Shown here in pieces: positions 42,441 through 59,707 of a stretch of 64,000 nt of DNA. Below the pieces are notes generated by a model. That model was not told the origin of the DNA. It made no database searches and saw only the letters and a list, made by a program, of their open reading frames with translations. The position numbers and the translations under genes were made by a program. Source of the stretch: Nitrospirota bacterium (GTDB lineage: Bacteria > Nitrospirota > UBA9217); contig CAVUCU010000001.1 in NCBI GenBank assembly GCA_963740085.1, positions 928,001 to 992,000 on the forward strand, given 5' to 3'. The stretch's first letter is position 1. Each line of letters begins with the position of its first letter.

Positions 42441-42456
42441 CGGGTTCTCCTTGACC

Positions 42457-43995: not shown

Positions 43996-44069
43996 GGATC
44001 AGGCTCCTTTATGCAGAGCACAGAGAGCGGAGGATCGAACCCTCCGGCCCACGCGCTTTGCGTATCATT

Positions 44070-45995
<1,926 letters not shown>

Positions 45996-46020
45996 AATAT
46001 CTCCAAAAGGAAGTCTATTG

Positions 46021-46119
46021 AGACTAGAATAGAGTTCATTGAGTTCGTTGAGTCGATGTATCCGAGGCCTTGGTTCTCACTCTATAAACTCTACAAACTC
46101 TATGAACTCTAGTAACTCG
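46021..46119. repeat. 9-nt-unit palindrome (TAGAGTTCA/ACTCTATGA family), 3' of nuoK
   Basis: TAGAGTTCATTGAGTTCGTTGAGT...ACTCTATAAACTCTACAAACTCTATGAACTCTA. Confidence 0.75.
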
Positions 46120-46120
46120 C

Positions 46121-46423
46121 CTAGCCCTTCATGATCGTAAACTCATCCGCGTACACGGTCCCGCGGTTCCGCGAGATCAGGATGATGATCGCAAGCGCAA
46201 CGGCCGCCTCTGCCGCCGCCACGGTGATGACGAAGATCACGAACACCTGGCCGGTGAGCGACTGAAGGTAGTGTGAAAAAGCGACCAGGTTGATGTTCGC
46301 CGCGTTCAGCATAAGCTCGATGGACATGAGAATAATGAATATATTGCGACGGGTAAGCACGCCGACCACACCGATGGTGAACAGCGCCGCGCTCAGCATA
46401 ATATACCAGGATAAAGGGATCAT
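46121..46423 (-). CDS. nuoK: NADH-quinone oxidoreductase subunit K
   Basis: [23 protein letters not shown]; GGAGG RBS before ATG 46423. Confidence 0.95.
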
Positions 46424-46438
46424 AAAACCTCCAAGATG

Positions 46439-46536
46439 AGAGTCCATAGTGTTCATAGAGTCTGTAGAGTTTATAGAGTTAGACCCATGGGTTTAAATTC
46501 TATTAACTCCATGAACTCAATAGACTCGAGAGACTC
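46439..46536. repeat. 9-nt-unit palindrome, 5' of nuoK
   Basis: GAGTCCATAGTGTTCATAGAGTCTGTAGAGTTTATAGAGTT...AACTCCATGAACTCAATAGACTC. Confidence 0.75.
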
Positions 46537-47043
46537 TTAATCACTCGTTCTTTTTTTCGCCAGCATGACCGCCCCGATTAACCCGACGAGGAGGATGACG
46601 GACGCGATCTCGAACGGGATCAGATACTTCTGATAGAGTACGATACCCAGTTCCTTGACCCCTGTGCCGGCAAGCGACATGGATTGACCGGCTTCCGCCG
46701 GGAACGAGCCATGCGAGACCAACAGCATGATCTCTCCCGCGATCAGCACGCCGAACGCGATCATCCAGGGCCAGAACCGGTTCGCCCGGGCAGCGGAACT
46801 TTCCTTGTCCACATTCAACAGCATGACCACAAAAAGGTAAAGGATCAGGATGGCGCCGGCGTACACGATAAGCTGCACTGCGGCGAGGAACTCGGCATGG
46901 AGCAGCACAAAGACCCCCGCAATATGGAAGAACAGGAGCAGCATGAACATGATGCTGTGCACCGGGTTTCGGCGCGTGATGGTGAGAAGCGCCGATGCTA
47001 CGATGACAAGGGCAAAGTATATGAATATGATCTTGCTCATCAT
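46537..47043 (-). CDS. nuoJ: NADH-quinone oxidoreductase subunit J
   Basis: RNPVHS, AEFLAAVQLIVYAGAI..L.LFVVML, PFEIAS. Confidence 0.95.
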   Translation of the reverse strand: MMSKIIFIYFALVIVASALLTITRRNPVHSIMFMLLLFFHIAGVFVLLHAEFLAAVQLIVYAGAILILYLFVVMLLNVDKESSAARANRFWPWMIAFGVLIAGEIMLLVSHGSFPAEAGQSMSLAGTGVKELGIVLYQKYLIPFEIASVILLVGLIGAVMLAKKRTSD

Positions 47044-47510
47044 TGTTTTTTTGCCGCCTTCCTGCCCATATAGTTGTCCCCCACTTCAACAAGCCGGTCC
47101 TGCGTATAGAACGCGTCCTTCCGGGAATAACAGGCAAGCTCGAATTCAGGAGTCATCAGGATCGCGGACACGGGACACGCATCTATGCAAAATCCGCAGA
47201 ACACGCACCGGAACAGGTCGAGTTCATAGGAGGTCACGATCTTTTCGTGCTCTGGCCCCTCGGTGGTGATCACGGTTATTGCCTTGGCGGGACAGACCGC
47301 CTCGCACAAGCCGCATCCGATGCACGCGGCTTTCCCCTCCTCGTTCCGCCGCATGGCATGAAGTCCGCGCGAGCCGGGGATCGGCTTGCGCTTGAACGTC
47401 GGGTACTGCCGGGTGATCGCCGGTTTCAGCATGGTCTTGAGCGTCAAGGCCATACCCTGGGCTAGCTCGACCAGGAAGATCGTTTTAAGCAGCTTTTTTG
47501 CCTTATTCAT
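47040..47510 (-). CDS. nuoI: NADH-quinone oxidoreductase subunit I
   Basis: T.QYP, CIGCGLCEAVCP, CVFCGFCIDACP. Confidence 0.95.
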   Translation of the reverse strand: MNKAKKLLKTIFLVELAQGMALTLKTMLKPAITRQYPTFKRKPIPGSRGLHAMRRNEEGKAACIGCGLCEAVCPAKAITVITTEGPEHEKIVTSYELDLFRCVFCGFCIDACPVSAILMTPEFELACYSRKDAFYTQDRLVEVGDNYMGRKAAKKQ

Positions 47511-47554
47511 CGTGTTAAACTCCTAACTCCGAACTCGCAAACCCTGAACTGCTT

Positions 47555-48640
47555 TTACAACCATCCCATCTGCTTCATACCCGCCGCCACCAGCAGGGTG
47601 CCGAGCGACAGGGGGAGCAGGAACTTCCACGAAAGCTTCATGAGCTGGTCATACCGGTACCGTGGGAGCGTGGCGCGAAGCCACATATAGAAGAAGATAA
47701 AGAAATACAGCTTGGCAAGCAGCCACATCGTCGGTGGAATCGCGGCCAGCAGGGTGTTTATCCAGGAGATCGGGGCGATATGGCCGAGCGTATGCGGCAG
47801 GATCTGCAACGGCAGCCACCCCCCGAGGAACATGATGCTCGCGAGCAGCGACACGACCATCATGCTTATATATTCGGCCATGAAGAACAGGGCAAACCGG
47901 ATGCCGCTGTACTCGGTGAAATATCCGGCCACAAGCTCGCTCTCCGCCTCGGGCAGGTCAAAGGGCACACGGTTCGTCTCGGCGATGCCTGCAAAAAGGT
48001 AGAGGAAGAACGCCACCGGACCAACCGGCAAGGCCGTGATGAACCACCCTTTCTCCTGGGCATTCACAATGTCCGACAGGTTCAGCGACCCGGCCATAAG
48101 CACGACGGTAATGACGGCAAAGGCCATGGGGATCTCATAGCTGATCATCTGGGCAGCCGAACGGAACCCTCCCATAAGGGAATATTTATTATTGGAAGCC
48201 CAGCCTGCCATGATCACGCCATAGGTGCCGATACTGGCAAACGCGAGGATGTAGAGCACACCGATGTTCAAATTTGAAACCAGGAGGGGTACCTCCCTGG
48301 GAAGAAGGCCGAAGATCCTTGTGGGAGGACCGAAGGGGATGACGACGATGGCGCCGAAGGCCATGGTGAGCAGGATAAGCGGTGCGATGCTGAACACCCA
48401 TTTGTCGGCCTTGGCCGGGATGATGTCCTCTTTCATCATGAACTTTAATCCGTCCGCAATAGGCTGGAGCAGCCCGTGCCAGCCGGTCCTCATCGGTCCG
48501 AGCCTCGCCTGCATGTGCGCGAGCACCTTGCGTTCCATATAGGAGAGATAGGCGGCATTCAGCATGACAAATCCCAGCAACAGGACCACCGGAATGACGA
48601 GGCCGGTGAAGACGTTCACTATCTGAGGTATTCCTGGCAT
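47555..48640 (-). CDS. nuoH: NADH-quinone oxidoreductase subunit H
   Basis: ERKV.AHMQARLGP, QPIADGLK, ETNRVPFDLPEAESELVAG, PRYRYDQLM. Confidence 0.96.
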   Translation of the reverse strand: MPGIPQIVNVFTGLVIPVVLLLGFVMLNAAYLSYMERKVLAHMQARLGPMRTGWHGLLQPIADGLKFMMKEDIIPAKADKWVFSIAPLILLTMAFGAIVVIPFGPPTRIFGLLPREVPLLVSNLNIGVLYILAFASIGTYGVIMAGWASNNKYSLMGGFRSAAQMISYEIPMAFAVITVVLMAGSLNLSDIVNAQEKGWFITALPVGPVAFFLYLFAGIAETNRVPFDLPEAESELVAGYFTEYSGIRFALFFMAEYISMMVVSLLASIMFLGGWLPLQILPHTLGHIAPISWINTLLAAIPPTMWLLAKLYFFIFFYMWLRATLPRYRYDQLMKLSWKFLLPLSLGTLLVAAGMKQMGWL

Positions 48641-48649
48641 GTTGTGCTC

Positions 48650-50830
48650 CTACACTTCGATCTTGATGTGTCGTATGGTCCCTATCTCATGGGAGCGCGT
48701 GATCGAACCGCCCGAGGAGAAGAGCAGACGCTCGGCAGTGATCACTTCCTGCTTCATGATCGAATCAGACGACAGTGAAAGGTCTACGTCGGTGTTCAAC
48801 AGAGGCGACTTCTCGCGCGGCCAGCATGAGCCGATGGCGAGATCCGTATACAGGGGCACGACGGACTTGATCTCGTTCATGATATCCCGGGGAGAGGCAT
48901 ACTGCATGGACCCGCCCATACGCTTCGCGACATCCTGGATGATCTCCCAATCAGGCCGCGACTCGCCGACCGGTTCCTCCGCCTTGTCCAGCTTCTGAAG
49001 CCTGCGTTCGAGGTTGGTGAACGTCCCGGTCTTCTCCGCGCTCGCCGCCGCCGGCAGCACCACATTGGCGATCCCCGCCGTCTCGGTCATGAAGATGTCC
49101 TGCACGACCAGGAAATCCAGTTTGCGGAGCGGCTCTCTGAGATGGGCATCACTTCCCACCGGGTCATCGCCCATGATGTAAAGCGCCGCGAGTTTGCCGG
49201 GCGCAATGGCATTGATCATCTCGACGGCATTCATGCCCGGCGTTTCCGGCAGGATCGCATTCCACGCGCCCGCGAACGAGGCGGTCGTGTCGGCATCCAC
49301 GCTGCGATACCCCGGGTAATAGGCCGGATTCACTCCCATGTCGAGCGAACCCTGGAAATTGCTCCGCCGCACCAGCGGATAGTGGGTCACGTTCTTGAGC
49401 TGTCCCGAGAGCACCTTGATATTCACGAACTCCTTGTCGGTCACCCGTGCGGGTACGATGATCGCGACACTCGCAGCCGCTTTCAGAAGATCCGCGGCGG
49501 TCAACACCTCGCTCCTGCCCTTTCCCTTTCCGGAAGAGAGAGCGGAAACCAGTTCTTCGATCGCTTGTTCGGCACCCAGAGGAATTATCACCGAGGCGAG
49601 CTTGTTGAATTTATTGCTCCCGGTGTTCACCAGGATGACCTTCCGTTCCTTCTTGTTCACCGCGCGGACGATCTCGATTCCCGTGAGCGGATTGATCTCG
49701 CCTACATTGCTGTCCAGCACGAGGATGACCTCGTGCTCGCCGATCTTGTTCAATTCACCCGAAAAGAAAGCGGCATCCAGCCCCTTCGGGACCTTGAGCC
49801 TCGCGAGCATATCGACATTGTTCGTCCCGACCACGGTGCGCATGAACTTCTGGAAAAGGTAGCTCTCCTCATTCGTGGTCCGGACCGATCCGAGTCCGCC
49901 GATGCTCTCGGGCCCGCGTTTGTTCTTGATCACCTTGAGATTGGTGGCGATGACCGAAAGCGCCTCGTCCCAGGTGCAGTCCACCAGCTCGCCGCCTACC
50001 CGCATTTTCGGGGTCGTGATCCGCTCGCTGCTGTGAACAGCGTCCCAGCCGAAACGACCCTTGGCGCACAGGTAGTTCTCCCGTGCAGGGCCCACGCGCA
50101 TGATCTTTCCGTCGCGCGTTTCATAGGTGATGCCGCAGCCGCAGCCGCAGTAATTGCAAACCGACTTCGTCCCCTCAAGGTTCCAGGAGCGCGCTTTAAA
50201 CTTGAACTGGCGTGTCGTGAGCGCCCCCACGGGGCAGATCTCGGTGCATTCGCCGCAGAACTCGCAGTCCAGCGGCCGGTCAAAGTCGGTGCTGATGCGC
50301 GCCCTCGTACCGCGTCTGGTGAAGGCCCACTCTCCCACACCATTCTGCTCATCGCAGATCCTGACGCATTTTCCGCAAAGGATGCAGCGGCTGATGTTCC
50401 GCTCGACGATCGGGCTTTCGTAATCCGGCGGCAGGTAGCCCTTTTCAGCATCGAACCGGCCCGCATCGAGTCCGTACTCGTGTGTGAGGTCCTGGAGCTG
50501 GCATTCGCCCGCCTTGTCGCAAACCGGACAGTCCAGGGGATGCTTGATGAGCAGGAGTTCGAGCACCATCCGTCTCGCCTCGATCAGCGCGGGGCTCGTT
50601 GTCCTGACAACCATGTTGTCCATCGCCGGCGTGGTGCACGACGGCGTGAACTTGCGCGGCGTTCCCTCCACTTCAACAAGACAGATCCGGCATGCGCCGA
50701 ACGGATGGAGCTTGTTGTCATGGCACAGGGTCGGGACCCTCGATCCGGCCGCGTTCGCGGCATCAAGGATCGTGGACCCTACCGGCACCTCGACCTTCTT
50801 TCCATCAACTGTTACCGTCATTTTCGACAT
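48650..50830 (-). CDS. nuoG: NuoG / FdhA-like Fe-S subunit lacking a Mo/W ligand
   Basis: CH..GACRIC..SC, HPLDCPVCDKAGECQLQ, CILCGKC, CEFCGECTEICP, CNYCGCGC..LCAKG. Confidence 0.88.
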   Translation of the reverse strand: MSKMTVTVDGKKVEVPVGSTILDAANAAGSRVPTLCHDNKLHPFGACRICLVEVEGTPRKFTPSCTTPAMDNMVVRTTSPALIEARRMVLELLLIKHPLDCPVCDKAGECQLQDLTHEYGLDAGRFDAEKGYLPPDYESPIVERNISRCILCGKCVRICDEQNGVGEWAFTRRGTRARISTDFDRPLDCEFCGECTEICPVGALTTRQFKFKARSWNLEGTKSVCNYCGCGCGITYETRDGKIMRVGPARENYLCAKGRFGWDAVHSSERITTPKMRVGGELVDCTWDEALSVIATNLKVIKNKRGPESIGGLGSVRTTNEESYLFQKFMRTVVGTNNVDMLARLKVPKGLDAAFFSGELNKIGEHEVILVLDSNVGEINPLTGIEIVRAVNKKERKVILVNTGSNKFNKLASVIIPLGAEQAIEELVSALSSGKGKGRSEVLTAADLLKAAASVAIIVPARVTDKEFVNIKVLSGQLKNVTHYPLVRRSNFQGSLDMGVNPAYYPGYRSVDADTTASFAGAWNAILPETPGMNAVEMINAIAPGKLAALYIMGDDPVGSDAHLREPLRKLDFLVVQDIFMTETAGIANVVLPAAASAEKTGTFTNLERRLQKLDKAEEPVGESRPDWEIIQDVAKRMGGSMQYASPRDIMNEIKSVVPLYTDLAIGSCWPREKSPLLNTDVDLSLSSDSIMKQEVITAERLLFSSGGSITRSHEIGTIRHIKIEV

Positions 50831-50853
50831 AGTTTTTACCTTAAACCTTTTTT

Positions 50854-50924
50854 ACCACAGAGATCGAAGAGATTTGAACCCTGGTTTCGAATCTTTCGTT
50901 GTTTTTCTCTGTGTCCTCTGTGGT
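50854..50924. repeat. CACAGAG/CTCTGTG-family palindrome between nuoF and nuoG
   Basis: ACCACAGAGATCGAAGAG...CTCTGTGTCCTCTGTGGT. Confidence 0.7.
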
Positions 50925-50937
50925 GAAGATTTTACCC

Positions 50938-52731
50938 TTAATCTATGGACCAGAACCTGCAGGCCTTGATGCACGATTTGCACTTCGTGCACTTTTCCGG
51001 ATCGATATAAGCGACCTGGCCCTTTTCCCACTTGAGCGCCCCGGTCGGACAGGCCTTGAAGCACTGCCCGCACTTCTTGCATCTATCCTTGTCCACCACG
51101 AACTTGACGAGTGGCGTGCAGACCCTGGCCGGGCAGCGGTGCTCCTTGATGTGCGCCTCGTACTCATCGCGGAAATACTTGATCGTGGTAAGCACCGGGT
51201 TGGGCGAGGTCTGTCCCAGCCCGCAGAGCGAGGTGTCCTTGATCTGCTGGGAAAGGGCGAGCAGCAGCTCGATATCGCCTTCGCGGCCTTCGCCGTTCGT
51301 GATCCGGGTGAGGATCGAAAGAAGCGTTTTGTTGCCGATGCGGCAGGGCACGCACTTGCCGCAGGACTCGTCCTCGGTGAACTCGAGGAAGAACTTTGCC
51401 ATGGCCGGCATGCACGTGGTCTCGTCCATCACCACCATGCCGCCTGACCCCATGATCGCGCCCGTCTTGTTGATGTTCTCGAAATCAACCGGGGTGTCGA
51501 TGAGCGTGTGGGGGATGCACCCGCCCGAAGGGCCGCCCATCTGCACGGCCTTGAACTTCCGATTGTTCTTGATACCGCCGCCGATATCGAAGATCACGGT
51601 CTTGAGCGGGATGCCCATCGGCACCTCGACGAGGCCAATGTTGTTCAGCGCGCCCGAGAGCGCGAACACCTTCGTTCCCTTGCTCTTTTCGGTCCCCAGG
51701 CTCGAGAACCAGTCCGCGCCGTTCAGGATGATCGGCGGGACATTGGCAAAGGTCTCGACGTTGTTCAGCACCGACGGCCGCATCCACAGGCCCTTGACCG
51801 CGGGGAACGGCGGCTTGGCCCGCGGCATGCCGCGCTTGCCCTCAATGGACGCCATCAGCGCCGTCTCTTCACCGCACACGAAGGCGCCGGCTCCCTGATA
51901 GATCTCGATATCGAGGTCGAACCCCGTGCCGAGGATGTCGTTTCCAAGCAGACCCCGTTCCTTGGCCTGATCGATGGCTATCTGGAGACGGTGCACCGCG
52001 AGCGGATACTCGGCTCTCACATAGATATAGCCGTAGTGGGCATTGATGCCCTTGGCGGCAATGATCATGCCCTCGAGCACCGAGTGCGGATCCGCCTCCA
52101 TGACGCTGCGGTCCATGAACGCGCCGGGGTCGCCTTCGTCGCCGTTGCACAGTATGTACTTGATGTCGCCGGTGACCCGCGCGCAAAGCTCCCATTTCAG
52201 ACCGGTCAGGAACCCTGCGCCGCCGCGTCCGCGCAGCCCCGAACGCTTCACCTCCGCCACGACCTGCTCGGGCGTCATTTCCGTGAGCGCCTTGGCCGCG
52301 GCCATATAACCATCGCGGGCAATATACTCCTCTATCTTCTCCGCATCGATGAGACTCCGGTTCCGAAGAGCCCGCAATACCTGGTGCTTGAAGAACGGAA
52401 TATCGTTCATCACGGGAATCGTGTTCTTCGCCGCAGGCGGCGTATAGAGGAACTTCTGGACCGGTCTCCCTTTGATAAAGTGTTCTTCCACGAGGTACGG
52501 CACATCTCCCGGTTTTACCACCTGGTAGAAGATGTCCTCCGGGTAGACGACCATCACCGGGCCCTTGGCGCAGAACCCGTTGCACCCTGTCAGAACGATC
52601 TTGACCTCGTTCTGAAGGTTGCGCTTGAGAAGCTCGGCCTCGAGCGCGTCCTTCACCTTGAGCGATCCGTTTGCCACGCAGCCCGTGCCTGCGCAGATCA
52701 TTATGTTAGAACGGTATGTCGTCGTTTCCAC
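50938..52731 (-). CDS. nuoF: NuoF-like FMN/NAD subunit of HydB/HndC (bifurcating) type
   Basis: N-terminal CAGTGC..GCNGFC, GLRGRGGAGF, NGDEGDPGAFMDR, GGPSG, SCGKCVPC, H..RCP.VC and two C-terminal CxxCxxCxxxC motifs; 597 aa. Confidence 0.92.
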   Translation of the reverse strand: METTTYRSNIMICAGTGCVANGSLKVKDALEAELLKRNLQNEVKIVLTGCNGFCAKGPVMVVYPEDIFYQVVKPGDVPYLVEEHFIKGRPVQKFLYTPPAAKNTIPVMNDIPFFKHQVLRALRNRSLIDAEKIEEYIARDGYMAAAKALTEMTPEQVVAEVKRSGLRGRGGAGFLTGLKWELCARVTGDIKYILCNGDEGDPGAFMDRSVMEADPHSVLEGMIIAAKGINAHYGYIYVRAEYPLAVHRLQIAIDQAKERGLLGNDILGTGFDLDIEIYQGAGAFVCGEETALMASIEGKRGMPRAKPPFPAVKGLWMRPSVLNNVETFANVPPIILNGADWFSSLGTEKSKGTKVFALSGALNNIGLVEVPMGIPLKTVIFDIGGGIKNNRKFKAVQMGGPSGGCIPHTLIDTPVDFENINKTGAIMGSGGMVVMDETTCMPAMAKFFLEFTEDESCGKCVPCRIGNKTLLSILTRITNGEGREGDIELLLALSQQIKDTSLCGLGQTSPNPVLTTIKYFRDEYEAHIKEHRCPARVCTPLVKFVVDKDRCKKCGQCFKACPTGALKWEKGQVAYIDPEKCTKCKSCIKACRFWSID

Positions 52732-52749
52732 GATAATTACTCCGTATTT

Positions 52750-52856
52750 ATATTGAAGATTGTATATTGAAAATTGGAAATTTTAAATTTGAGTGTGAGT
52801 TGCTTTTTGCTTCTCACAATTTTTAATTTCCAATTTCCAATCTTCAATTTCCAATG
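52750..52856. repeat. heptamer-unit palindrome (TTGAAAA/TTTCCAA family)
   Basis: ATTGAAGATTGTATATTGAAAATTGGAAATTTT...AATTTCCAATTTCCAATCTTCAATTTCCAAT. Confidence 0.75.
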
Positions 52857-52861
52857 CGCCG

Positions 52862-53239
52862 TTAGTACGTCGTCTCATGCCCGACAACCAGCGCATACTC
52901 CGGAACCGGCTTGCCCCCCGCCACGTGTTCAGCAAAGATCTTCTTGGTCTTCTCCTCGTTTAACGCGATGTATTTAACGGGAGGATCTCCGGCTATCTCG
53001 ACCGTGATCATCGGCTCCTGGCTGCAGAGCCCGGCGCATCCGGATGTGGTGATCGCGACATCCTTCAACTTGGATTTGGCCAGCTCTTCCATGATCGTGT
53101 TCATGATGCCCCGGGCGCCGGCAGCGATCCCGCAGGTCCCCATATGCACCGTGATCTTTGCCCGGAACCCGCCTTCACGCAGTCCCTGATGGTAATCTTC
53201 CTTGATCTTTTTCAGATCAGCGATCGTAAGCTTTGCCAT
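52862..53239 (-). CDS. thioredoxin-fold [2Fe-2S] ferredoxin (HndB/HydD-like)
   Basis: ITVHMGTCGIAAGAR, SGCAGLCSQEP, HV.GG.PV.EY. Confidence 0.9.
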   Translation of the reverse strand: MAKLTIADLKKIKEDYHQGLREGGFRAKITVHMGTCGIAAGARGIMNTIMEELAKSKLKDVAITTSGCAGLCSQEPMITVEIAGDPPVKYIALNEEKTKKIFAEHVAGGKPVPEYALVVGHETTY

Positions 53240-53257
53240 ATAACCCCCTATCCGGGG

Positions 53258-53340
53258 AAATTCTAAATTCGAATATCTAAATCCTAAGCATTTAGATTTT
53301 TCGATATTGTTTAGAATTTCGGATTTCGTAATGAGAAATT
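53258..53340. repeat. CGAAATC/GATTTCG-family palindrome
   Basis: AAATTCTAAATTCGAATATCTAAATCCTAA...TTGTTTAGAATTTCGGATTTCG. Confidence 0.7.
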
Positions 53341-53344
53341 GCTC

Positions 53345-53854
53345 CTACTCGTACTTCCTGACAATTTCCATCACCTTCGTGGCTGCAACGTCGCCGTAGG
53401 TGTCCTGGCCGATAACGACAACCGGGGCAAGACCGCAGGCGCCGAGGCACCTCACGGCCTCAAGGGAATACTTCTTGTCCCTCGTCACTTCGCCGACTTC
53501 CAGGTCGAGTTCATCCTTGATCTTCTCGAGGATCTCCTCGCTCCGCTTCACATAACAGGCGGTGCCGAGACAAACCCTGATCACGTGCTTGCCGCGCGGT
53601 ACGAGCGTGAAAAAAGAGTAGAAGGTCGCGACGCCGAAGACCACGCTCGGCGACATATCAAGCCCCCTGGCAACATATCGCTGCACCGCATGCGGCAGGT
53701 AGCCGCATACGTCCTGTGCCTGCTGGAGCACGGGTATGAGCGATCCGGGCTTTCCCTTGTACCGCGCGACGATCCCATCGATCTTCAGGTACATTTCGGG
53801 TGTTATGAACTCGTTGTTTGTAGCAGTCTGCTGTTCAACCGCTTCGTTGCTCAT
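53345..53854 (-). CDS. nuoE: NuoE-like [2Fe-2S] subunit (HydC/HndA type)
   Basis: LIPVLQQAQ..GYLP, GVATFYSFF, VCLGTAC, RCLGACGLAP. Confidence 0.93.
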   Translation of the reverse strand: MSNEAVEQQTATNNEFITPEMYLKIDGIVARYKGKPGSLIPVLQQAQDVCGYLPHAVQRYVARGLDMSPSVVFGVATFYSFFTLVPRGKHVIRVCLGTACYVKRSEEILEKIKDELDLEVGEVTRDKKYSLEAVRCLGACGLAPVVVIGQDTYGDVAATKVMEIVRKYE

Positions 53855-53880: not shown

Positions 53881-54417
53881 TTACATTTCAAATTTGATCT
53901 GCTCGTTCAGCATACCCCTGATCGCTTCAAGCACCGCCGGATTATTGATCGGCACATCTTCAAGGTCGTTCCTGATCTCCCGTGTATCGAACCGGAAGGT
54001 CCGTTCGCCATCCCGCGCCTCATAGAGAACATCAAGGTCGGGGTGGCCCGCTATCAGCGTGAGCACGGTATCGGCCATGCTGCCGATCGCCGGCCGGTCT
54101 ACATGGCTCCAGAGAAAGGTTGCCGCAACCCTCGCTCCCTTGCCCGGAGCGGAATCCACGGTCACCATCCCGCCCGCCTGCTCCGCCGCCTGCGACAGGA
54201 ATGGTATCCCGAGTCCCGTCTTTTTGCGTTTGGTGCTGAAGAAGGGGTCCCGGACCTTTGCCAGCGTCTCGACATCCATTCCCCTGCCGTCATCATTGAC
54301 CTCGATGCGAAGGAGGTCGCGCGCCCTATCGAGAATAATGATGATCTCTATTGTCTTTGCGTCAGCACGGACCGAATTCTCGGCAATGTCAAGGATATGC
54401 AGGGAGATGTCTTCCAC
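53881..54417 (-). CDS. stand-alone HATPase_c (histidine-kinase-like ATPase)
   Basis: EDISLHILDIAENS (N box), DDGRGM, DPFFSTK..TGLGIP, S.PGKG; GTG start 54417. Confidence 0.88.
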   Translation of the reverse strand: MEDISLHILDIAENSVRADAKTIEIIIILDRARDLLRIEVNDDGRGMDVETLAKVRDPFFSTKRKKTGLGIPFLSQAAEQAGGMVTVDSAPGKGARVAATFLWSHVDRPAIGSMADTVLTLIAGHPDLDVLYEARDGERTFRFDTREIRNDLEDVPINNPAVLEAIRGMLNEQIKFEM

Positions 54418-54421
54418 CTTC

Positions 54422-55168
54422 TCAACACTCCGCCTTCCTGCCGTCTCTTCCTGCCAATGCTTTTTTGATCTCGGCCACGGTCCCGTCTTCGATCGTGAAG
54501 AGCGTAAACCGCTTACCGATGTCTTCAGGACCGTGAGCATCCGAACTGGTAATGACCGGGTACTTCCTGCAATCCGGGAAGCGGTTCGCTGCGACAGCCA
54601 CGGTCATGTGCCGCGAGATCTCAACGGCATCGGGAGCAAGCTGAGGCGGAATAAACCCAAGCTGTCCGATGATGCTGAACGACTCCCGGTCCACATGCGC
54701 CGCGATCACCAGGCTGTCACCGTGTCCTGCGCGCGCCGCTTCAACGATGGCCGCGGCCGGCAGCGATGTCGCGCCGATCAAAAGCCGGTCGCAGAAACCG
54801 GTCACTCCATCCTCATCGTCCGCGATCACCTGCTGTCCAAAGGCGCGCTCATCATTGGCGCCGGTCAGGTTCCGGTAGATGACTTCCTGGAACCGCAGGA
54901 GGTCCTCGTCGAGTTCAAAGAACACCAGGAGGTGCGCTTCTTCCGAGGAAGCGACTTCCATCCCTCCAAGCACCATCAATCCGTTTTGCCTGCCCGCCTT
55001 CTTGACGGCCAGGACGTTCTCGGCGGAATTATGATCACAGATGCCTATGAGGTCGAGCCCTTTTCGCAGGGCCTCGTGCACGATCCCCAGGGGCGACATG
55101 TCCAATTCAGCGCAGGGAGACAGACACGTATGCACGTGCAGGTCGGCCTTAATGCGCCTCAGCGCCAC
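54422..55168 (-). CDS. PHP-domain metallophosphoesterase
   Basis: DLHVHTCLSPC, ICDHNS, GMEV, AAHVDR, SSDAH. Confidence 0.9.
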   Translation of the reverse strand: MALRRIKADLHVHTCLSPCAELDMSPLGIVHEALRKGLDLIGICDHNSAENVLAVKKAGRQNGLMVLGGMEVASSEEAHLLVFFELDEDLLRFQEVIYRNLTGANDERAFGQQVIADDEDGVTGFCDRLLIGATSLPAAAIVEAARAGHGDSLVIAAHVDRESFSIIGQLGFIPPQLAPDAVEISRHMTVAVAANRFPDCRKYPVITSSDAHGPEDIGKRFTLFTIEDGTVAEIKKALAGRDGRKAEC

Positions 55169-55499
55169 GGATCCCCGCCTTGTATAGTCTACCGACCAGC
55201 TCAAACGCCGACAGGCCGCTCACCATGACCGGGATGCCCTCTTCCTCGGCCTTGGCAATGGTGTCCTTTTCCGGCTGCCGTCCCTGAACAAGGATGATGC
55301 CGGACAGGTCCTTGTGCGATGCAACGGCCACGATGTTCTGGTGGATGTGGAGCGTGACCCAGAGTGTCCCCTCATCCGCGTGCGCCAGGACATCCGACAA
55401 GAGATCGCTCACATAGCCGCTCGTCGCTTCACGGTCAAGATGTCCGGATCCGGTTTTTACTTCCAGACCGAATTCCTTTACAAGGTCGCTTAACTTCAT
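55149..55499 (-). CDS. DRTGG-domain protein
   Basis: GYVSDLLSDVLA, LWVT..H.NIVAVA, AEEEGIP. Confidence 0.85.
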   Translation of the reverse strand: MKLSDLVKEFGLEVKTGSGHLDREATSGYVSDLLSDVLAHADEGTLWVTLHIHQNIVAVASHKDLSGIILVQGRQPEKDTIAKAEEEGIPVMVSGLSAFELVGRLYKAGIRGAEAH

Positions 55500-55509: not shown

Positions 55510-56463
55510 TCAACTCGTAAAATAGAACTTCATGGTCAAACGCGTTCCGTCGGGCACTGATGAGGTAAGATTCATCTCATCGGAGCATTTTTTCATGTTT
55601 ACCAGCCCCATGCCTGCGCCGAATCCCAGCTCCCGCACCCAGTCAGGGGCCGTGGAGTAGCCCGGCTGCATGGCGCGCTCGACGTCGGGGATCCCGGGGC
55701 CTTTGTCGATGGCCTGAACGATGACCCCCCCCTTGTCGATCTGGGCCAGTATCTCTCCGCCGGTGGTATATGAAGCAAGATTGATCTCCGCTTCATAGGT
55801 TGCCACCCCGATCCGTCTCAGGGTCGGGGCGGTGACGCCCAGTTTTTTGAGCGCGTTCTTGAGTTCGCTGGCCGCCTTGCCCGCGCTTTTCAGGGTCTGG
55901 CCTTCAACATAGTACTTGAAGGAGAAACTGATCTCGTCGGCAATGACGTCCTGAAAGAACTGTCTCATCGCCGGCCGCTGGTCGTCCTCATTGGCCTTTG
56001 ACTCGGTCTGCGTGTATTCGATCTCAAGCTTCTTCAGCAGGCCTTCGACGATGTTCCCCTTGGTGAGGATCCCGACCAGTTGCTCATTGTGGTCTAATAC
56101 CGGGTACCGTCTGAACCCGTATTTGGAAAACTTGGCGAGACAGTGAACAAGCAGCTCGTCGCTGTACAGGCACTCAACAGTCGTCGTCATCTTATCCCTG
56201 ACGAGGGTGTTGATCTCATTATTGCCGAGGGCATTGACCAGGTCTGCCATGCTGACCATGCCTAAGAGCTTTCCGTTCTCGACGACCGGTGTGCCGGAGA
56301 TACGGTTGTCCCGCAGGAGGAGACTGAGATCAGCCATGGTCTGGTCCGGCCTTATGGTAAAGATCGTGGTGGACATGACCTCGCCGACCGTGATCTCGTA
56401 GGCCATTTCCTGTGTCTTGGTCACCCCGGACGGTGTCCCCTGCTCTTTGCGTTGCAGTACCAT
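55510..56463 (-). CDS. CBS-pair plus anti-sigma-type Ser/Thr kinase (HATPase_c_2)
   Basis: Two CBS domains, then AGKAASELK..LK.LG, ATYEAEIN, DKGPGI.D...AM.PGYSTAPDWVRELGFGAGMGL.NMK. Confidence 0.88.
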   Translation of the reverse strand: MVLQRKEQGTPSGVTKTQEMAYEITVGEVMSTTIFTIRPDQTMADLSLLLRDNRISGTPVVENGKLLGMVSMADLVNALGNNEINTLVRDKMTTTVECLYSDELLVHCLAKFSKYGFRRYPVLDHNEQLVGILTKGNIVEGLLKKLEIEYTQTESKANEDDQRPAMRQFFQDVIADEISFSFKYYVEGQTLKSAGKAASELKNALKKLGVTAPTLRRIGVATYEAEINLASYTTGGEILAQIDKGGVIVQAIDKGPGIPDVERAMQPGYSTAPDWVRELGFGAGMGLVNMKKCSDEMNLTSSVPDGTRLTMKFYFTS

Positions 56464-56467: not shown

Positions 56468-56824
56468 CTATTGCCGCGCGGCCACTCCTTTGAGTCCCTT
56501 CATGTACAGGATACCGCAGGCCTCGAACATGGTAAGCTTCGTCACGAAGAGGGGGATGTCCTTTTGTTTCGCCAGCGCCACCGCATCGGTTTCCGGCTGT
56601 TTGCCGCGCACAACGCAGACCGCCTTGATCTCTGCTATGTCCGCTGTTCGTACTGCCTGGGGATTCGTGAGACCCGTGATCAGAATGCCGTTCGCATGAG
56701 TGCGGCCAAGCACATCGCTCATGAGATCAGCGCTGAAGCAGTGTTCTACCTCGATCTTATCGACAATAGTATTTCCGGTAAGAACCTCCGCACCAAGAAG
56801 GTTCACGATCTCTCTTAAATTCAT
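56468..56824 (-). CDS. DRTGG-domain protein
   Basis: SADLMSDVL, ITGLTNPQAVRTA, VRGK.P, FEACGILY. Confidence 0.85.
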   Translation of the reverse strand: MNLREIVNLLGAEVLTGNTIVDKIEVEHCFSADLMSDVLGRTHANGILITGLTNPQAVRTADIAEIKAVCVVRGKQPETDAVALAKQKDIPLFVTKLTMFEACGILYMKGLKGVAARQ

Positions 56825-56840: not shown

Positions 56841-58034
56841 CTACCGGTCGCACTCGCCGAGCACGATATCGATCGTCCCGATACAGGCGACAACGTCCGC
56901 CATCATATGGCCGGTCACCATCTTCGAAAGGGCGCTCAGGTTCACGAACGAGGGGGCGCGGATCTTGATCCGGTAGGGTCTGCCGCTCCCGTCGCTTACA
57001 ATATAGAAGCCAAGCTCTCCCTTCGGGCCTTCAGTGGCCACGTACACCTCGCCCTTGGGCATGGGGACCCATTTGCTCATGAGTACGAACTGATGGGCCA
57101 GCGTCTGCATATTCTGCATGACCTTCATCTTCTCGGGGATGGCGTAGCGCGGGTCGTCCGTGACGACCGGTCCGGGCTGCATCATGTCGAGGCACTGCTT
57201 GATGATGCGGTTGCTCTGGCGAAGTTCACCGAGACGCACGACATACCGGTCGTACACGTCGCCGTTCTTCCCAAGGGGAACATCGAAATCCACCTTATCG
57301 TAGGCCGCGTAGGGCTCGACCTTACGCAAATCGTAGTTGACGCCCGATCCTCTCAGTGAAGCCCCGGTAAGCCCGTGCTGTACCGCCTCCTCGGCGGTCA
57401 TTACTCCGATGCCTTTGGTGCGTTTGAGCCAGATACGATTTTCCCGGATCAGCGTATCGTACTCTTCGAGCCTTTTGGGGAAGAGCTCGGTGAACTCACG
57501 GCATTTGTCAATGAATTCCCGGGGGACATCGTTCCGCACCCCGCCGATGCGCGCATAGCTCACGGTCAGTCTCGCGCCGGTCGCCATCTCAAGGAGATCG
57601 AGTATAAGCTCCCGTTCTCTCGCCGCATACAACAGGACCGTCATGGCGCCTATGTCCACCGCGCTGGTGCCAAGCCAGATGAGATGAGAGCTGATGCGCG
57701 TAAGCTCCGCGGTGATCGTCCGGAGAAAATGCGCCCGCTCGGGCACGACGATCCCCGCCAGTTTTTCGACCGCGGTCACATACCCGAGGTTGTTGCACAT
57801 GCATGAGATATAGTCCAGCCGGTCGGTCATCGGGATGACCTGGTGGTATGTCTTGCTCTCCATCCACTTCTCGATTCCCCGATGAAGATAGCCGATCTGC
57901 GGTTCGATGCCGATAATGGTCTCGCCCTGAAGGTCCAATACCAGGCGGAGCACCCCGTGCGTGCTGGGGTGCTGCGGACCCATGTTGAGTGTTATTTCTT
58001 TTTGTACGATCTCTTTTGTCTCGGCAACGGACAT
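56841..58034 (-). CDS. nuoD: NADH-quinone oxidoreductase subunit D
   Basis: NMGPQHPSTHGVLR, GYLHRGIEK, DRLDY, EGPKGELG, DIVLGECDR; no NiFe CxxC motifs. Confidence 0.96.
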   Translation of the reverse strand: MSVAETKEIVQKEITLNMGPQHPSTHGVLRLVLDLQGETIIGIEPQIGYLHRGIEKWMESKTYHQVIPMTDRLDYISCMCNNLGYVTAVEKLAGIVVPERAHFLRTITAELTRISSHLIWLGTSAVDIGAMTVLLYAARERELILDLLEMATGARLTVSYARIGGVRNDVPREFIDKCREFTELFPKRLEEYDTLIRENRIWLKRTKGIGVMTAEEAVQHGLTGASLRGSGVNYDLRKVEPYAAYDKVDFDVPLGKNGDVYDRYVVRLGELRQSNRIIKQCLDMMQPGPVVTDDPRYAIPEKMKVMQNMQTLAHQFVLMSKWVPMPKGEVYVATEGPKGELGFYIVSDGSGRPYRIKIRAPSFVNLSALSKMVTGHMMADVVACIGTIDIVLGECDR

Positions 58035-58182: not shown

Positions 58183-58653
58183 TTAGTATCCTTTCAGCGG
58201 ATATTCTTTCCTCAGCGGGTGCCCTTCCCAATCCTCGGGCAGGAGTATTCTGCGAAGGTCCGGATGTCCGTCGAACTTGATCCCCATGAGGTCGTAGGTC
58301 TCGCGCTCGTGCCAGTTCGCCGTTTGCCAGATCGAGGTGACCGAGTCTACGCAAGGGTCCTCATCCGGCACTCTTACCTTCAATCGTATGCGATGGTGGT
58401 GTACGGTCGAGATCATCATATACACGACCTCGAACCGCGGCCCTTCATCTCCCGGATACCGGGAATAATCGACTGCCGTGAGATCCGCAAGGTGGTCCAT
58501 CTTTACCGACGGCTCGTCGCGCAGGAAGCGGCAAATATCCTTGATCAGGTCCTTCTTGACCGACACGCTCACCTGCCCTGCGTAGGTTGTCGAGCCGAGC
58601 ACCTGGCCCGCGAATTTTTCTTCTATTATTTTGGCGATCTGTAAGGGATCCAT
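58183..58653 (-). CDS. nuoC: NADH-quinone oxidoreductase subunit C
   Basis: [50 protein letters not shown]; GAGG RBS before ATG 58653. Confidence 0.95.
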
Positions 58654-58772
58654 TCTACCTCGGAACTCGCTATTATTATAAAGACGCTCTTCAGGATTGA
58701 TGGAGCAAGCCGATGCATGTGGTTCGGTGCCGCCGGTACGACAAGACGGATTTTGATAGTGCCTCGTTGGAT

Positions 58773-59252
58773 CTACTTCCGGATGTAGTGCTCTTTTCTG
58801 ATCTTTTCCTGCAGCTTTATGATCCCGTGCATCAGTGCCTCGGGCCGCGGCGGGCAACCGGGGATGTACACATCAACAGGGATGATATTGTCCACACCCT
58901 GTACAACGGCGTAAGTATTGAAGATGCCGCCTGAGGCGGCGCAGCTCCCCATGGCGATGACATACCGCGGCTCCGGCATCTGATCGTACACGCGCCGCAC
59001 CACGGGGGCCATCTTTTTCGACAGCGTCCCGGCCACAAGGAGCAGGTCCGACTGGCGCGGCGACGGACGGGGCACCGTGCCGAAGCGATCGAAATCATGT
59101 TGCGGCGCGGCATAATACTGGATCATCTCAATGGCGCAGCACGCAAGCCCGAAGGACATGGGCCAGATGGAGCACGACCGGCAATAGTTCAAGAACCCGT
59201 CGATGGTCGTCGAGATGTATCCTTCTTCAAAGACATTCTGTATTACTCCCAT
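58773..59252 (-). CDS. nuoB: NADH-quinone oxidoreductase subunit B
   Basis: [29 protein letters not shown]. Confidence 0.96.
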
Positions 59253-59617
59253 TCGAGGGCCCCCTTCTTCCAGGCATAAAAATACCCAACGAGCAGGATG
59301 GCAATGAAAACCACCATTTCCACAAAACCATACAGGCCAATCCGGCTATAGGCCACGGCCCAGGGATAGAGGAAAACGGACTCGATGTCGAATATGAGGA
59401 ACAGCATGGCGATGATGTAATACCGGATAGAGAACTTCTGGTGGGCGTCCATGAAGGGGGTGATGCCGGATTCGTACGTCAGCAGTTTTTCGGGATAGGG
59501 GTTCCGGGGCCGGAGTATCCAGCTGACGACAAGCATCCCGATGCCGACGGCGGAGCCGACCAGCAGAAAAACAACCACGGGCAGAAAGTGTACCGGAAGA
59601 TAGTTGCCTGGGCTCAT
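59243..59617 (-). CDS. nuoA: NADH-quinone oxidoreductase subunit A
   Basis: [34 protein letters not shown]. Confidence 0.96.
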
Positions 59618-59678: not shown

Positions 59679-59707
59679 ATGATAAGCTAACGCCGCAATT
59701 TTGTCAA
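59679..59707 (-). promoter_or_regulatory. sigma70 promoter of nuo operon
   Basis: TTGACA-N17-TATCAT on minus strand, ~60 nt upstream of nuoA. Confidence 0.7.

What the first reader, a model, noticed from the sequence alone, without database searches (positions are those of the whole stretch)
48650..53854. Complex I with an electron-bifurcating-type (HydABC/Hnd-like) input module
Seen: inside a complete nuoA-N operon, NuoF is 597 aa with an extra N-terminal [2Fe-2S] domain and C-terminal 2x[4Fe-4S]. It reads GDEGDPGAFM, KVFAL and GGPSG instead of the canonical NuoF ESEPGTFK. A separate HndB-like ferredoxin lies between nuoE and nuoF. Known: these features mark the HydB subunit of bifurcating [FeFe]-hydrogenases and related enzymes. 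No H-cluster or NiFe subunit is present. Inference: a proton-pumping quinone oxidoreductase that may couple NADH, ferredoxin and quinone (e.g. NADH to quinone driving ferredoxin reduction). I know of no biochemical characterisation of such a complex.
Basis: partly seen in the sequence, partly recalled or inferred. Interest (0 to 1): 0.78.

Follow-up and report, generated by a model that had tools for sequence, protein, structure and literature searches.

The report
Complex I with bifurcating-type input module
This soil or sediment bacterium of the phylum Nitrospirota encodes a respiratory complex I whose NADH-input part is of the type found in electron-bifurcating hydrogenases, an enzyme class that was predicted from genomes in 2022 under the name Nuo-Bfu and has not, as far as I could find, been tested at the bench.

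Summary
On the minus strand, 40986-59617, lies a full nuoA-N set. Its NuoF (597 aa) carries every hallmark of the BfuB/HydB subunit of electron-bifurcating enzymes. A separate HndB-like protein lies between nuoE and nuoF.

It is not new as a kind. Schut et al. 2022 (PMC9304861) named this class "Nuo-Bfu", listed it for Nitrospirae, and proposed NADH plus reduced ferredoxin to menaquinone with proton pumping. My searches found no biochemical test of it.

What I add:
- Five accessory genes (DRTGG-like, CBS/GHKL-ATPase, DRTGG, PHP, GHKL-ATPase) sit between nuoD and nuoE.
- NuoG is a dead, shortened formate-dehydrogenase-like subunit.
- The HndB-like protein has only three Cys. A fold model docks it on NuoE/NuoF.
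- Trees disagree. NuoD groups with ordinary Nitrospirota complex I. NuoF groups with free-standing E-HndB-F-G clusters and with a Syntrophales nuo operon. So the input module looks swapped in.
- The genome also holds an ordinary second nuo operon, Rnf, DsrAB and two selenocysteine Fdh-Bfu clusters.

Whether ferredoxin is obligatorily coupled cannot be settled here. The scan has noted Nuo-Bfu-like modules before, on other genomes.

The parts
59679..59707 (-). Promoter-like site TTGACA-17-TATCAT (11 of 12) upstream of nuoA
   Evidence: It is the best of 11 promoter-like sites in 40100-60000, where shuffles gave a mean of 9.8, so this is a consensus match only.
59243..59617 (-). nuoA
   Evidence: PF00507, E 1.4e-39.
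58773..59252 (-). nuoB
   Evidence: PF01058. NF005012, 245 bits against a cut-off of 116.
58183..58857 (-). nuoC. The listed TTG start overlaps nuoB, so the true start is probably later.
   Evidence: PF00329, residues 98-224.
56841..58034 (-). nuoD
   Evidence: TIGR01962, 569.7 bits against a cut-off of 459; groups (97*) with NuoD of eight ordinary Nitrospirota nuo operons.
56468..56824 (-). Accessory gene 1: small DRTGG-domain protein, counted from its first ATG
   Evidence: PF07085, E 1.5e-6. Seen at the same place in L001, L002, L003 and L006.
55510..56463 (-). Accessory gene 2: protein with two CBS domains and a GHKL-type ATPase (HATPase_c_2)
   Evidence: PF00571 and PF13581.
55149..55499 (-). 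Accessory gene 3: DRTGG-domain protein
   Evidence: PF07085, E 5e-5, just under the Pfam cut-off. 79-84% identical copies in L001-L003 and L006.
54422..55204 (-). Accessory gene 4: PHP-domain (metal phosphoesterase-like) protein; start not refined
   Evidence: PF02811 and PF13263.
53881..54540 (-). Accessory gene 5: GHKL ATPase (HATPase_c) without a HisKA domain; start not refined
   Evidence: PF02518, E 4.1e-15.
53345..53854 (-). nuoE, of BfuC/HydC type. The four [2Fe-2S] ligand Cys (C95, C100, C136, C140) are present. No receiver domain.
   Evidence: PF01257; best solved match 7t2r_C at 156.7 bits, Thermus Nqo2 at 80.9; these Cys are invariant in 17 of 17 rows.
52862..53239 (-). HndB-like thioredoxin-fold protein, 125 aa, with three Cys; probable extra subunit
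   Evidence: docking score 0.69 against a best control of 0.00.
50938..52731 (-). nuoF, of BfuB/HydB/HndC type
48650..50830 (-). nuoG, of BfuA type: one 2Fe-2S motif and four 4Fe-4S motifs, then a formate-dehydrogenase-like molybdopterin domain. It lacks the Cys/Sec-His active site and the C-terminal Molydop_binding domain.
40986..48640 (-). nuoH, I, J, K, L, M, N (membrane arm and the NuoI cluster subunit)
   Evidence: PF00146, Fer4 families, PF00499, PF00420 and three PF00361 hits.

Best explanation
This is a member of the predicted Nuo-Bfu class. The quinone module and membrane arm (NuoABCD, HIJKLMN) are of the ordinary Nitrospirota type. The NADH-input module has been replaced by a Hnd/HydABC-type module: NuoE (like BfuC), an HndB-like small subunit, NuoF (like BfuB) and a catalytically dead formate-dehydrogenase-like NuoG (like BfuA). 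The module travels with five accessory, probably regulatory, genes. Identity: about 0.9. Most likely mechanism, inferred and about 0.4-0.5: NADH binds at the FMN of NuoF. Reduced ferredoxin delivers electrons through the two C-terminal [4Fe-4S] clusters of NuoF and the [2Fe-2S] of NuoE. The two streams merge at the FMN/B1/C1 site, as in a HydABC hydrogenase running towards H2. The merged electrons pass down the NuoG clusters to NuoI, NuoB and menaquinone, and proton pumping by NuoL/M/N is coupled to that step. The reaction should be reversible: proton-motive force plus menaquinol would give NADH plus reduced ferredoxin. Shown here: gene content, motifs, homology and phylogeny. Inferred: assembly into one complex, the ferredoxin coupling and its direction.
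For: Architecture: all 14 nuo genes lie on one strand, with no other nuoE/F/G in the operon.

NuoF, NuoE and NuoG each score higher against Bfu-type or formate-dehydrogenase chains than against complex I chains. NuoF: 844 bits to 7t2r_B against 388 to Nqo1. NuoE: 156.7 to 7t2r_C against 80.9 to Nqo2. NuoG: 353 and 336 to YjgC and FdsA against 205 to Nqo3.

Bfu signature (features named in PMC12018979, read):
- AFM motif, GGPSG loop and AFVCGEETAL are present.
- B1, B3, B4 and B5 cysteines all align with 7t2r_B.
- The B2 site has C440, H527, C533 and C538, with Thr in place of the fifth ligand, so it is the Zn type.

In my alignment of 83 Bfu-type and 3 ordinary NuoF: GGPSG 83 of 83 against 0 of 3; xDEGDPGAFM 82 of 83, where the ordinary ones read ADE[G/M]EPGTFK; the ferredoxin-domain Cys are in at least 82 of 83 and missing from 3 of 3.

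Tree: a 99* branch separates all 83 Bfu-type rows from the ordinary NuoF.

NuoG cannot be a formate dehydrogenase. It reads LARLKVP where FdsA has CARVCHSP, and it has no PF01568 domain. So the only evident outlet for the module is the quinone arm.

The same genome has an ordinary nuoA-N operon as well (C1:761393-777040, NuoF about 430 aa, 42% identical). This one is therefore not simply the cell's NADH dehydrogenase.

Ferredoxin is in use in this genome: four POR_N genes and Rnf.

Conservation: the same gene order is found in 4 Nitrospirota and 2 Syntrophales/delta-proteobacterial MAG loci out of 80 loci examined. NuoF at 88% identity or more is found in 17 of 24 other genomes of the same family and 0 of 16 genomes of other families of the phylum (gene context not checked there).

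Published proposal of the same mechanism: PMC9304861.
Against: - No experiment exists, here or (by my searches) in print.
- Both NADH to MQ and Fd to MQ run downhill, so thermodynamics does not demand coupling.
- The Bfu mechanism was worked out for third substrates lying between NADH and Fd in potential. Menaquinone at -74 mV lies above both.
- The genome has Rnf for Fd:NAD exchange, so a ferredoxin-using complex I is not needed in principle.
- Assembly of the Bfu module on NuoI/B/C/D was not modelled.
- My F tree and D tree used the quick method (SH-aLRT support only).
Confidence: 0.5

Rival explanations
1. NADH-only complex I. The extra clusters and domains are inherited baggage, or an electron buffer, and ferredoxin plays no part.
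For: NADH to MQ is exergonic on its own (potentials quoted). The B2 site is of the redox-inert Zn type. Rnf is present for Fd/NAD exchange.
Against: The ferredoxin-domain Cys and the AFM/GGPSG signature are kept across relatives down to 53% identity. A separate ordinary nuo operon already supplies an NADH-only enzyme. In characterised enzymes, non-bifurcating homologues lack these clusters (PMC9304861).
Confidence: 0.2
2. Dual-donor complex I. Either NADH (at FMN) or reduced ferredoxin (at B3/B4) can feed the quinone arm independently, without obligatory coupling.
For: Both routes exist in the sequence. Ferredoxin-fed complex I relatives exist: cyanobacterial NDH-1, as cited in PMC9304861.
Against: In solved Bfu enzymes the path from C1 to B3/B4 is gated by NAD(H)-dependent movements (PMC12018979), which argues for coupling. 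Nothing here tests it.
Confidence: 0.15
3. NADH is the bifurcated donor: one electron goes downhill to menaquinone and one uphill to ferredoxin, as FixABCX/EtfABCX-type enzymes do.
For: NADH binds at the proposed bifurcation site. Etf-type enzymes that couple NADH to Fd and menaquinone are known (introduction of PMC12018979).
Against: With -280, -500 and -74 mV the gain (about +206 mV) and the cost (about -220 mV) roughly cancel. Nothing is then left for NuoL/M/N, which are all intact (my arithmetic). In known Bfu enzymes NAD(H) and Fd sit on the same side of the reaction.
Confidence: 0.12
4. The E-HndB-F-G genes encode a soluble BfuABC enzyme that merely lies inside the nuo operon. The Nuo arm then works as an 11-subunit complex with another donor.
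For: Close relatives of the module do stand alone in other Nitrospirota (L004-L015).
Against: NuoG has no catalytic site. No third-substrate gene is present. The module sits exactly where nuoEFG sit, in 6 loci from two phyla.
Confidence: 0.03

Closest known systems
Nuo-Bfu, the predicted bifurcating complex I (Schut et al. 2022, Front Microbiol 13:946711, PMC9304861; BfuB clades 38 and 39)
   Same: A nuoA-N operon in which BfuABC-type genes stand in place of nuoEFG. Nitrospirae are named as holders (clade 39; 16 Nuo sequences per the supplement). The predicted reaction is NADH + Fd(red) to menaquinone with pumping.
   Different: The paper describes 14 subunits. Its main text has no occurrence of 'HndB' or 'kinase', and I could not see its Figure 3. 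Here there is a 15th candidate subunit (HndB-like), five accessory genes inside the operon, and a NuoG without the C-terminal domain. The Geobacter-type operons lack these extras (12 loci), and their NuoF forms a separate 100* clade.
NiFe-HydABCSL of Acetomicrobium mobile (PDB 7t2r) and FeFe-HydABC (7q4v, 8a6t, 7p5h)
   Same: Nearest solved relatives of NuoF and NuoE. Full-length alignment with all cluster Cys and the FMN/NAD motifs.
   Different: No hydrogenase subunit here. The fifth B2 ligand (Cys476 of 7t2r_B) is Thr, as in the FeFe and Nfn enzymes. The outlet is the quinone arm.
Four-subunit Hnd/HydABCD-type hydrogenases with a small HndB/HydD subunit (Desulfovibrio fructosovorans Hnd, Thermoanaerobacter tengcongensis Hyd; recalled, not read here)
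   Same: Gene order C-like, small thioredoxin-fold protein, B-like, A-like. Firmicute FeFe clusters in my loci carry the same DRTGG/CBS-ATPase/PHP/ATPase set (L034, L051, L058, L059).
   Different: The A subunit has no H-cluster. The module is embedded in a nuo operon.
Ordinary complex I (Thermus Nqo1-3, E. coli NuoEFG)
   Same: The Q module and membrane arm are standard. NuoD, NuoB and NuoH pass or approach the NCBIfam cut-offs.
   Different: NuoF is below the TIGR01959 cut-off (500 against 559). NuoG is below TIGR01973 (455 against 470). NuoE is below every NuoE model's cut-off. There are extra domains and clusters.
NAD-dependent formate dehydrogenase FdsABG / Fdh-Bfu
   Same: NuoG's best solved matches are YjgC and FdsA. 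The same genome has two real selenocysteine Fdh-Bfu clusters.
   Different: NuoG lacks the Cys/Sec-His pair and the Molydop_binding domain.

Membership tests
Bfu (BfuABC/HydABC) electron-bifurcating family | BfuB with FMN/NAD site motifs AFM, GGPSG and Phe in the AFVCGEETAL loop | tested here: met
   Motifs as named in PMC12018979.
Bfu (BfuABC/HydABC) electron-bifurcating family | B1 [4Fe-4S] plus C-terminal ferredoxin domain with two CX2CX2CX3C(P) motifs (B3, B4) | tested here: met
   C457/460/463/503, C551/554/557/561, C581/584/587/591.
Bfu (BfuABC/HydABC) electron-bifurcating family | [quoted passage not shown] | tested here: met
   C13, C18, C50, C54; C440, H527, C533, C538. Thr478 stands at the fifth-ligand position, so B2 is predicted to hold Zn.
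Bfu (BfuABC/HydABC) electron-bifurcating family | BfuC with the C1 [2Fe-2S] cluster | tested here: met
Bfu (BfuABC/HydABC) electron-bifurcating family | Demonstrated coupling of NAD(H), ferredoxin and a third substrate | not testable with these tools
   Needs enzyme assays.
Nuo-Bfu (Schut et al. 2022) | BfuABC genes inside a nuo operon with all eleven other nuo genes | tested here: met
Nuo-Bfu (Schut et al. 2022) | Placement in BfuB clade 39 of that paper's tree | not tested
   The paper's sequence list was not available: the held supplement is 8,449 characters of legends and one table. My own tree puts it apart from the Geobacter-type clade.
Respiratory complex I (NDH-1, 14 core subunits) | All 14 core genes; Q-module subunits above curated cut-offs | tested here: met
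   NuoD 569.7 against 459; NuoB 245 against 116.
Respiratory complex I (NDH-1, 14 core subunits) | NuoE/F/G of the respiratory type (equivalog cut-offs) | tested here: not met
   NuoF 500.3 against 558.65 (TIGR01959); NuoG 455.4 against 470.05; NuoE 133 against 141. NuoF does pass NF010120 narrowly (394.5 against 389).
[FeFe]- or [NiFe]-hydrogenase (Hnd/HydABC, HydABCSL) | A catalytic H-cluster or NiFe subunit in the cluster | tested here: not met
   no PF02906 or PF00374 hit in any operon ORF. NuoD is the NuoD equivalog.
Metal-dependent formate dehydrogenase alpha subunit | Cys/Sec-His active-site pair and the Molydop_binding domain | tested here: not met

The most novel reading that the evidence does not exclude
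The E-HndB-F-G module with its five accessory genes is a self-regulated, exchangeable input cartridge for complex I. It was installed separately in a Nitrospirota and in a Syntrophales nuo operon, and separately again from the Geobacter type. In sister Nitrospirota the same cartridge stands free, sometimes back to back with an ordinary nuo operon, with its NuoE fused to a receiver domain. There it may dock on the same membrane arm as an alternative input module. In this window the fixed form would be a true three-substrate converter (NADH + ferredoxin, menaquinone, proton-motive force) switched at the protein level by nucleotide-sensing CBS/GHKL/PHP proteins.
Probability: 0.15. Interest if true: 0.75.

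Novelty: new member of a known kind. Interest (0 to 1): 0.35.

Why it matters
If Nuo-Bfu enzymes really merge NADH and ferredoxin electrons before the quinone step, anaerobes living on menaquinone would gain the driving force that NADH alone lacks for full proton pumping. Running backwards, they would have a one-enzyme route from menaquinol and membrane potential to both NADH and reduced ferredoxin. That bears on how sulfate reducers, syntrophs and metal reducers balance their energy budgets.

This locus adds little to the principle, which is in print, and cultured Geobacter species are easier to test. It does show that the input module can be exchanged as a block together with a conserved accessory gene set whose function is unknown. 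It also gives a natural comparison within one genome: an ordinary and a Bfu-type complex I side by side.

Tried and rejected
1. Idea: the free-standing E-HndB-F-G' clusters of other Nitrospirota serve an 11-gene nuo operon that lacks nuoEFG. Rejected for the genomes tested. In 5 of 5 (G001-G005) the single true NuoD lies in an operon with ordinary nuoE/F/G. In one of them nuoE fell under my coverage filter, and two contigs end early.

2. Origin of NuoG. The 28-row tree leaves the deep branches unresolved. I cannot say whether NuoG came from the free-standing G' or from a selenocysteine Fdh.

3. AU test that all 20 nuo-linked BfuB form one clade: lnL 58.8 lower, p-AU 0.038. This is a marginal rejection only, and I named the group after seeing the tree.

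4. Literature on the DRTGG/CBS/PHP/GHKL gene set beside hydrogenases. Searches found nothing relevant, so its role stays unknown.

5. PMC10553843, opened for 'confurcat' and 'complex I', has nothing on this enzyme.

6. Promoter and terminator scan inside the operon. Counts are no higher than in shuffles (11 against 9.8; 19 against 16.2), so there is no evidence for or against internal signals.

7. RNA evidence. Only assembled contigs of two metatranscriptome libraries were available, all from relatives (mostly 90-95% alike, the best pieces about 97-98%). One 984-base contig spans nuoD, DRTGG-like and CBS/ATPase (56119-57100), and others tile 53901-56611. Contigs cannot show a single transcript, and DNA carry-over is possible, so this is a weak hint at most.

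8. Place look-up of earlier notes near the window: nothing.

9. HndB/regulator co-occurrence count (both 19, HndB only 10, regulators only 2, neither 49, of 80). I treat it as rough, because several 'HndB only' hits are probably the homologous N-terminus of NuoF itself.
Full report
**What is there**

The minus strand of the window from 59617 down to 40986 carries nuoA, B, C, D, then five non-nuo genes, then nuoE, a 125-aa thioredoxin-fold gene, nuoF, nuoG and nuoH to nuoN. Each has the expected Pfam family.

The finding's coordinates (48650-53854) cover nuoG to nuoE.

- **NuoF** (50938-52731) is 597 aa from a GTG start. Many relatives are 587 aa, which fits a start at Met11. It has an N-terminal thioredoxin-like 2Fe-2S domain, the FMN/NADH domain, the N3-type 4Fe-4S region and a C-terminal two-cluster ferredoxin domain.
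- **Operon content.** No ORF of the operon hits an H-cluster or NiFe family.
- **Upstream signal.** A near-consensus promoter-like site lies just upstream of nuoA (59707-59679). This is a consensus match only.

**The input module is of the bifurcating (Bfu) type**

Against solved structures:

| Subunit | Best Bfu-type or Fdh match | Ordinary complex I match |
|---|---|---|
| NuoF | 7t2r_B, B subunit of bifurcating NiFe-HydABCSL: E 7.9e-253, 844 bits; then FeFe-HydB and NfnB/StnB chains | Thermus Nqo1: 388 bits |
| NuoE | 7t2r_C: 156.7 bits | Nqo2: 80.9 bits |

The residue-level alignment with 7t2r_B runs over the whole length. It keeps every cluster cysteine and the DEGDPGAFMDR, GAGAFVCGEETAL and GGPSGGC stretches.

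Xiao et al. 2025 (PMC12018979; sections and passages read) name as Bfu signatures:
- the AFM motif
- the GGPSG loop
- a Phe in the 278-287 loop
- the B1, B3 and B4 clusters
- the B5 site
- a His/Cys B2 site that holds Zn unless a fifth Cys is present

All are present here. The fifth position (Cys476 in 7t2r_B) is Thr478, so B2 is predicted to be the Zn type.

In my alignment of 83 Bfu-type and 3 ordinary NuoF:

| Feature | Bfu-type | Ordinary |
|---|---|---|
| GGPSG | 83 of 83 | 0 of 3 |
| xDEGDPGAFM | 82 of 83 | 0 of 3 (they read ADE[G/M]EPGTFK) |
| Ferredoxin-domain Cys | at least 82 of 83 | absent from 3 of 3 |
| H527 | 83 of 83 | 3 of 3 |
| C538 | 83 of 83 | 0 of 3 |

H527 is present in the three ordinary ones too. 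In this small set, C538 and the ferredoxin domain discriminate better.

The curated NCBIfam equivalogs agree that E, F and G are not of the respiratory type:
- NuoF 500 against a cut-off of 559 (TIGR01959)
- NuoG 455 against 470
- NuoE below every NuoE cut-off

NuoF does pass NF010120 narrowly (394.5 against 389).

**NuoG is a dead formate-dehydrogenase-like subunit**

It keeps one 2Fe-2S motif and four 4Fe-4S motifs (read; Pfam). Its best solved matches are YjgC and FdsA (353 and 336 bits), ahead of mycobacterial NuoG (291) and Thermus Nqo3 (205).

Where FdsA reads CARVCHSP, NuoG reads LARLKVP. It also has no Molydop_binding domain. So it has no catalytic site of its own. The only evident outlet for the module is the NuoI/NuoB/quinone path.

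**The HndB-like protein**

[quoted passage not shown] It has only three Cys (C36, C68, C72). These, with His105, are invariant in 17 of 17 relatives. Whether it binds a cluster or a metal ion is open.

A complex prediction of NuoE + NuoF + HndB gave these figures:
- a score of 0.69 against a best control of 0.00 (three controls)
- that mark was reached by 116 of 157 solved complexes and 2 of 215 mismatched pairs in the tool's calibration
- the runs agree in at least 33% of their contacts
- partner pLDDT is at least 77

My own alignments were used, so these counts hold only roughly.

The Cys loops of HndB touch NuoF 205-213 and 362-368 and NuoE 138-154. HndB is homologous to the B5 domain that sits near FMN and C1 in solved enzymes, so the placement may be remembered from those structures. 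I take the result as support for HndB being a subunit, not for where it sits.

**Five accessory genes inside the operon**

Between nuoD and nuoE lie:
1. a small DRTGG protein
2. a protein with two CBS domains and HATPase_c_2
3. a second DRTGG protein
4. a PHP-domain protein
5. a HATPase_c protein without HisKA

The same set accompanies HndB-containing Bfu clusters in very different settings:
- FeFe-hydrogenase clusters of Firmicutes (L034, L051, L058, L059)
- an Nfn-like cluster (L040)
- free-standing Nitrospirota clusters such as L008

So the set follows the Bfu core, not the third substrate. I found nothing in the searchable library on its function.

**It is already in print as a class**

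Schut et al. 2022 (PMC9304861; passages, supplement text) describe a 14-subunit 'Nuo-Bfu':
- 51 sequences in all
- BfuB clade 38: Deferribacteres and Proteobacteria, 26 Nuo sequences
- BfuB clade 39: Planctomycetes and Nitrospirae, 16 Nuo sequences

They predict simultaneous oxidation of NADH and reduced ferredoxin with menaquinone as third substrate. They argue that NADH alone may not drive four protons with menaquinone.

'Nuo-Bfu' occurs in that paper only. Searches for later work found no characterisation. Papers outside the open-access library were not searched.

The paper's main text has no occurrence of 'HndB' or 'kinase'. I could not see its figures or its sequence list.

**Relatives and history**

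| Layout | Loci | Count |
|---|---|---|
| Window's order, nuoABCD, accessory genes, E, HndB, F, G, H..N (Nitrospirota; NuoF 91-94% identical) | L001, L002, L003, L006 | 4 |
| Same, but CBS/ATPase gene upstream of nuoA (Syntrophales/delta-proteobacterial; 63-64%) | L016, L017 | 2 |
| Geobacter/Desulfuromonas-type operons without HndB or accessory genes (53-56%) | 12 loci | 12 |
| Free-standing E-HndB-F-G' clusters, mostly Nitrospirota (65-72%) | L004, L005, L007, L008, L010-L015 | 10 |

In the free-standing clusters, G' (about 820 aa) also lacks the Cys/Sec-His pair. In L005, L007 and L008 that cluster lies back to back with an ordinary nuoA-G operon. In three of three checked (L005, L010, L011) its NuoE carries an N-terminal receiver domain.

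**NuoF tree** (86 rows, quick IQ-TREE, SH-aLRT; left out were L004's frameshifted copy and two rows under 400 aa):
- A 99* branch separates Bfu-type from ordinary NuoF.
- The window falls in a 97* clade of 18 rows: 5 Nitrospirota Nuo rows, 2 Syntrophales Nuo rows and 11 free-standing rows.
- The Geobacter-type rows form a separate 100* clade.
- Forcing all 20 nuo-linked rows into one clade costs 58.8 lnL, p-AU 0.038. This is marginal, and I named the group after seeing the tree.

**NuoD tree** (26 rows) tells a different story:
- The window's NuoD sits in a 97* clade with the NuoD of eight ordinary Nitrospirota operons.
- The Syntrophales NuoD goes with the Geobacter type.

The simplest reading is that a Hnd-like cartridge replaced nuoEFG in a resident Nitrospirota operon, and did so separately in Syntrophales. 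This is an inference from two quick trees.

Orthologues of this NuoF (88% identity or more) occur in 7 of 8 other genomes of the genus and 10 of 16 from other genera of the family. They occur in 0 of 16 genomes from other families of the phylum. Gene context was not checked there.

**The rest of the genome** (3.46 Mb, 7 contigs, 98.5% complete)

- A second nuoA-N operon of the ordinary kind (C1:761393-777040; NuoF 42% identical, NuoD 46%).
- Three more E-F-G Bfu clusters. Two of them, in tandem, have an A subunit that reads CARL*HSPT, a selenocysteine-His formate dehydrogenase site.
- Two group-4 hydrogenase-like clusters.
- Rnf.
- DsrAB.
- Four 2-oxoacid:ferredoxin oxidoreductase genes.

So this is a ferredoxin-rich anaerobe with dissimilatory sulfur metabolism. 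It keeps an ordinary and a Bfu-type complex I side by side, which argues that the two do different jobs.

**Mechanism and its rivals**

The steps shown are gene content, motifs and relationships. Assembly and catalysis are inferred.

I rate the published confurcation model as most likely: NADH + Fd(red) to MQ, pumping, reversible. It uses the module in the same sense as a HydABC hydrogenase running towards H2. It would also lift the driving force from about 206 mV to about 316 mV per electron (my arithmetic on the potentials quoted).

| Explanation | Probability |
|---|---|
| Confurcation, NADH + Fd(red) to MQ | 0.5 |
| NADH-only enzyme | 0.2 |
| Uncoupled dual-donor enzyme | 0.15 |
| Soluble enzyme merely encoded in the operon | 0.03 |

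**Verdict**

This is a new member of a known, still untested kind.

It has variant features worth recording:
- the HndB-like subunit
- the embedded accessory gene set
- the truncated dead-Fdh NuoG
- the evidence for module replacement

Earlier notes of this scan, on other genomes, reached the same closest-known class.

Noticed in passing
own genome C5:409067-413500 and C5:415006-419759 (outside the window): Two tandem BfuC-B-A clusters. Their A subunits carry an in-frame stop in CARL*HSPT, the selenocysteine-His site of formate dehydrogenase. They look like two Sec-dependent Fdh-Bfu enzymes.
   Followed up: partly
L005:8980-9921, L010:2559-3428, L011:8948-9823: In the free-standing E-HndB-F-G' clusters of other Nitrospirota, the NuoE-like subunit is fused to an N-terminal response-regulator receiver domain (3 of 3 checked). 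In L008 a histidine kinase and a receiver gene lie upstream. The window's NuoE has no such domain.
   Followed up: partly
L005, L007, L008 (whole loci): An ordinary nuoA-G operon and a Bfu-type E-HndB-F-G' cluster lie back to back on opposite strands. The five genomes with free-standing clusters that I checked each have a single nuo operon with its own nuoEFG.
   Followed up: yes
L016 and L017 (Syntrophales / delta-proteobacterial MAGs): The same accessory-gene plus HndB design sits inside a nuo operon. Here NuoG is 880 aa and keeps a Molydop_binding domain, and the CBS/ATPase gene lies upstream of nuoA. Its NuoD groups with the Geobacter type, not with the window.
   Followed up: partly
window 7068-9483 (-) and 37477-39896 (-): Two ribonucleotide reductase large-subunit genes each look split or truncated. 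ORF 7828-9483 matches profile positions 1-346 of Ribonuc_red_lgC, and the next ORF, 7068-7952, holds positions 466-523 plus a TSCPD domain. ORF 38154-39896 matches positions 1-347 only, and the ORF after it has no Pfam hit. This may be an intein, a frameshift or a domain insertion.
   Followed up: no
window 40152-40853 (-): A 233-aa ORF directly downstream of nuoN with no Pfam family.
   Followed up: no
window 21892-26144 (+): An HD_5/DUF4388 protein and a GGDEF-EAL protein lie side by side, next to the ScpA/ScpB and ParA-like genes. Ordinary signalling genes.
   Followed up: no
L004:1032-7065: In a Candidatus Sulfobium MAG the closest free-standing module (NuoF 72% identical) follows group-4 hydrogenase-like genes: a fused 30K/49K subunit with a NiFeSe_Hases hit, a 20K subunit and two antiporter-like subunits. 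It could be an Mbh-Bfu-like arrangement. The NuoF there is frameshifted in the assembly.
   Followed up: no
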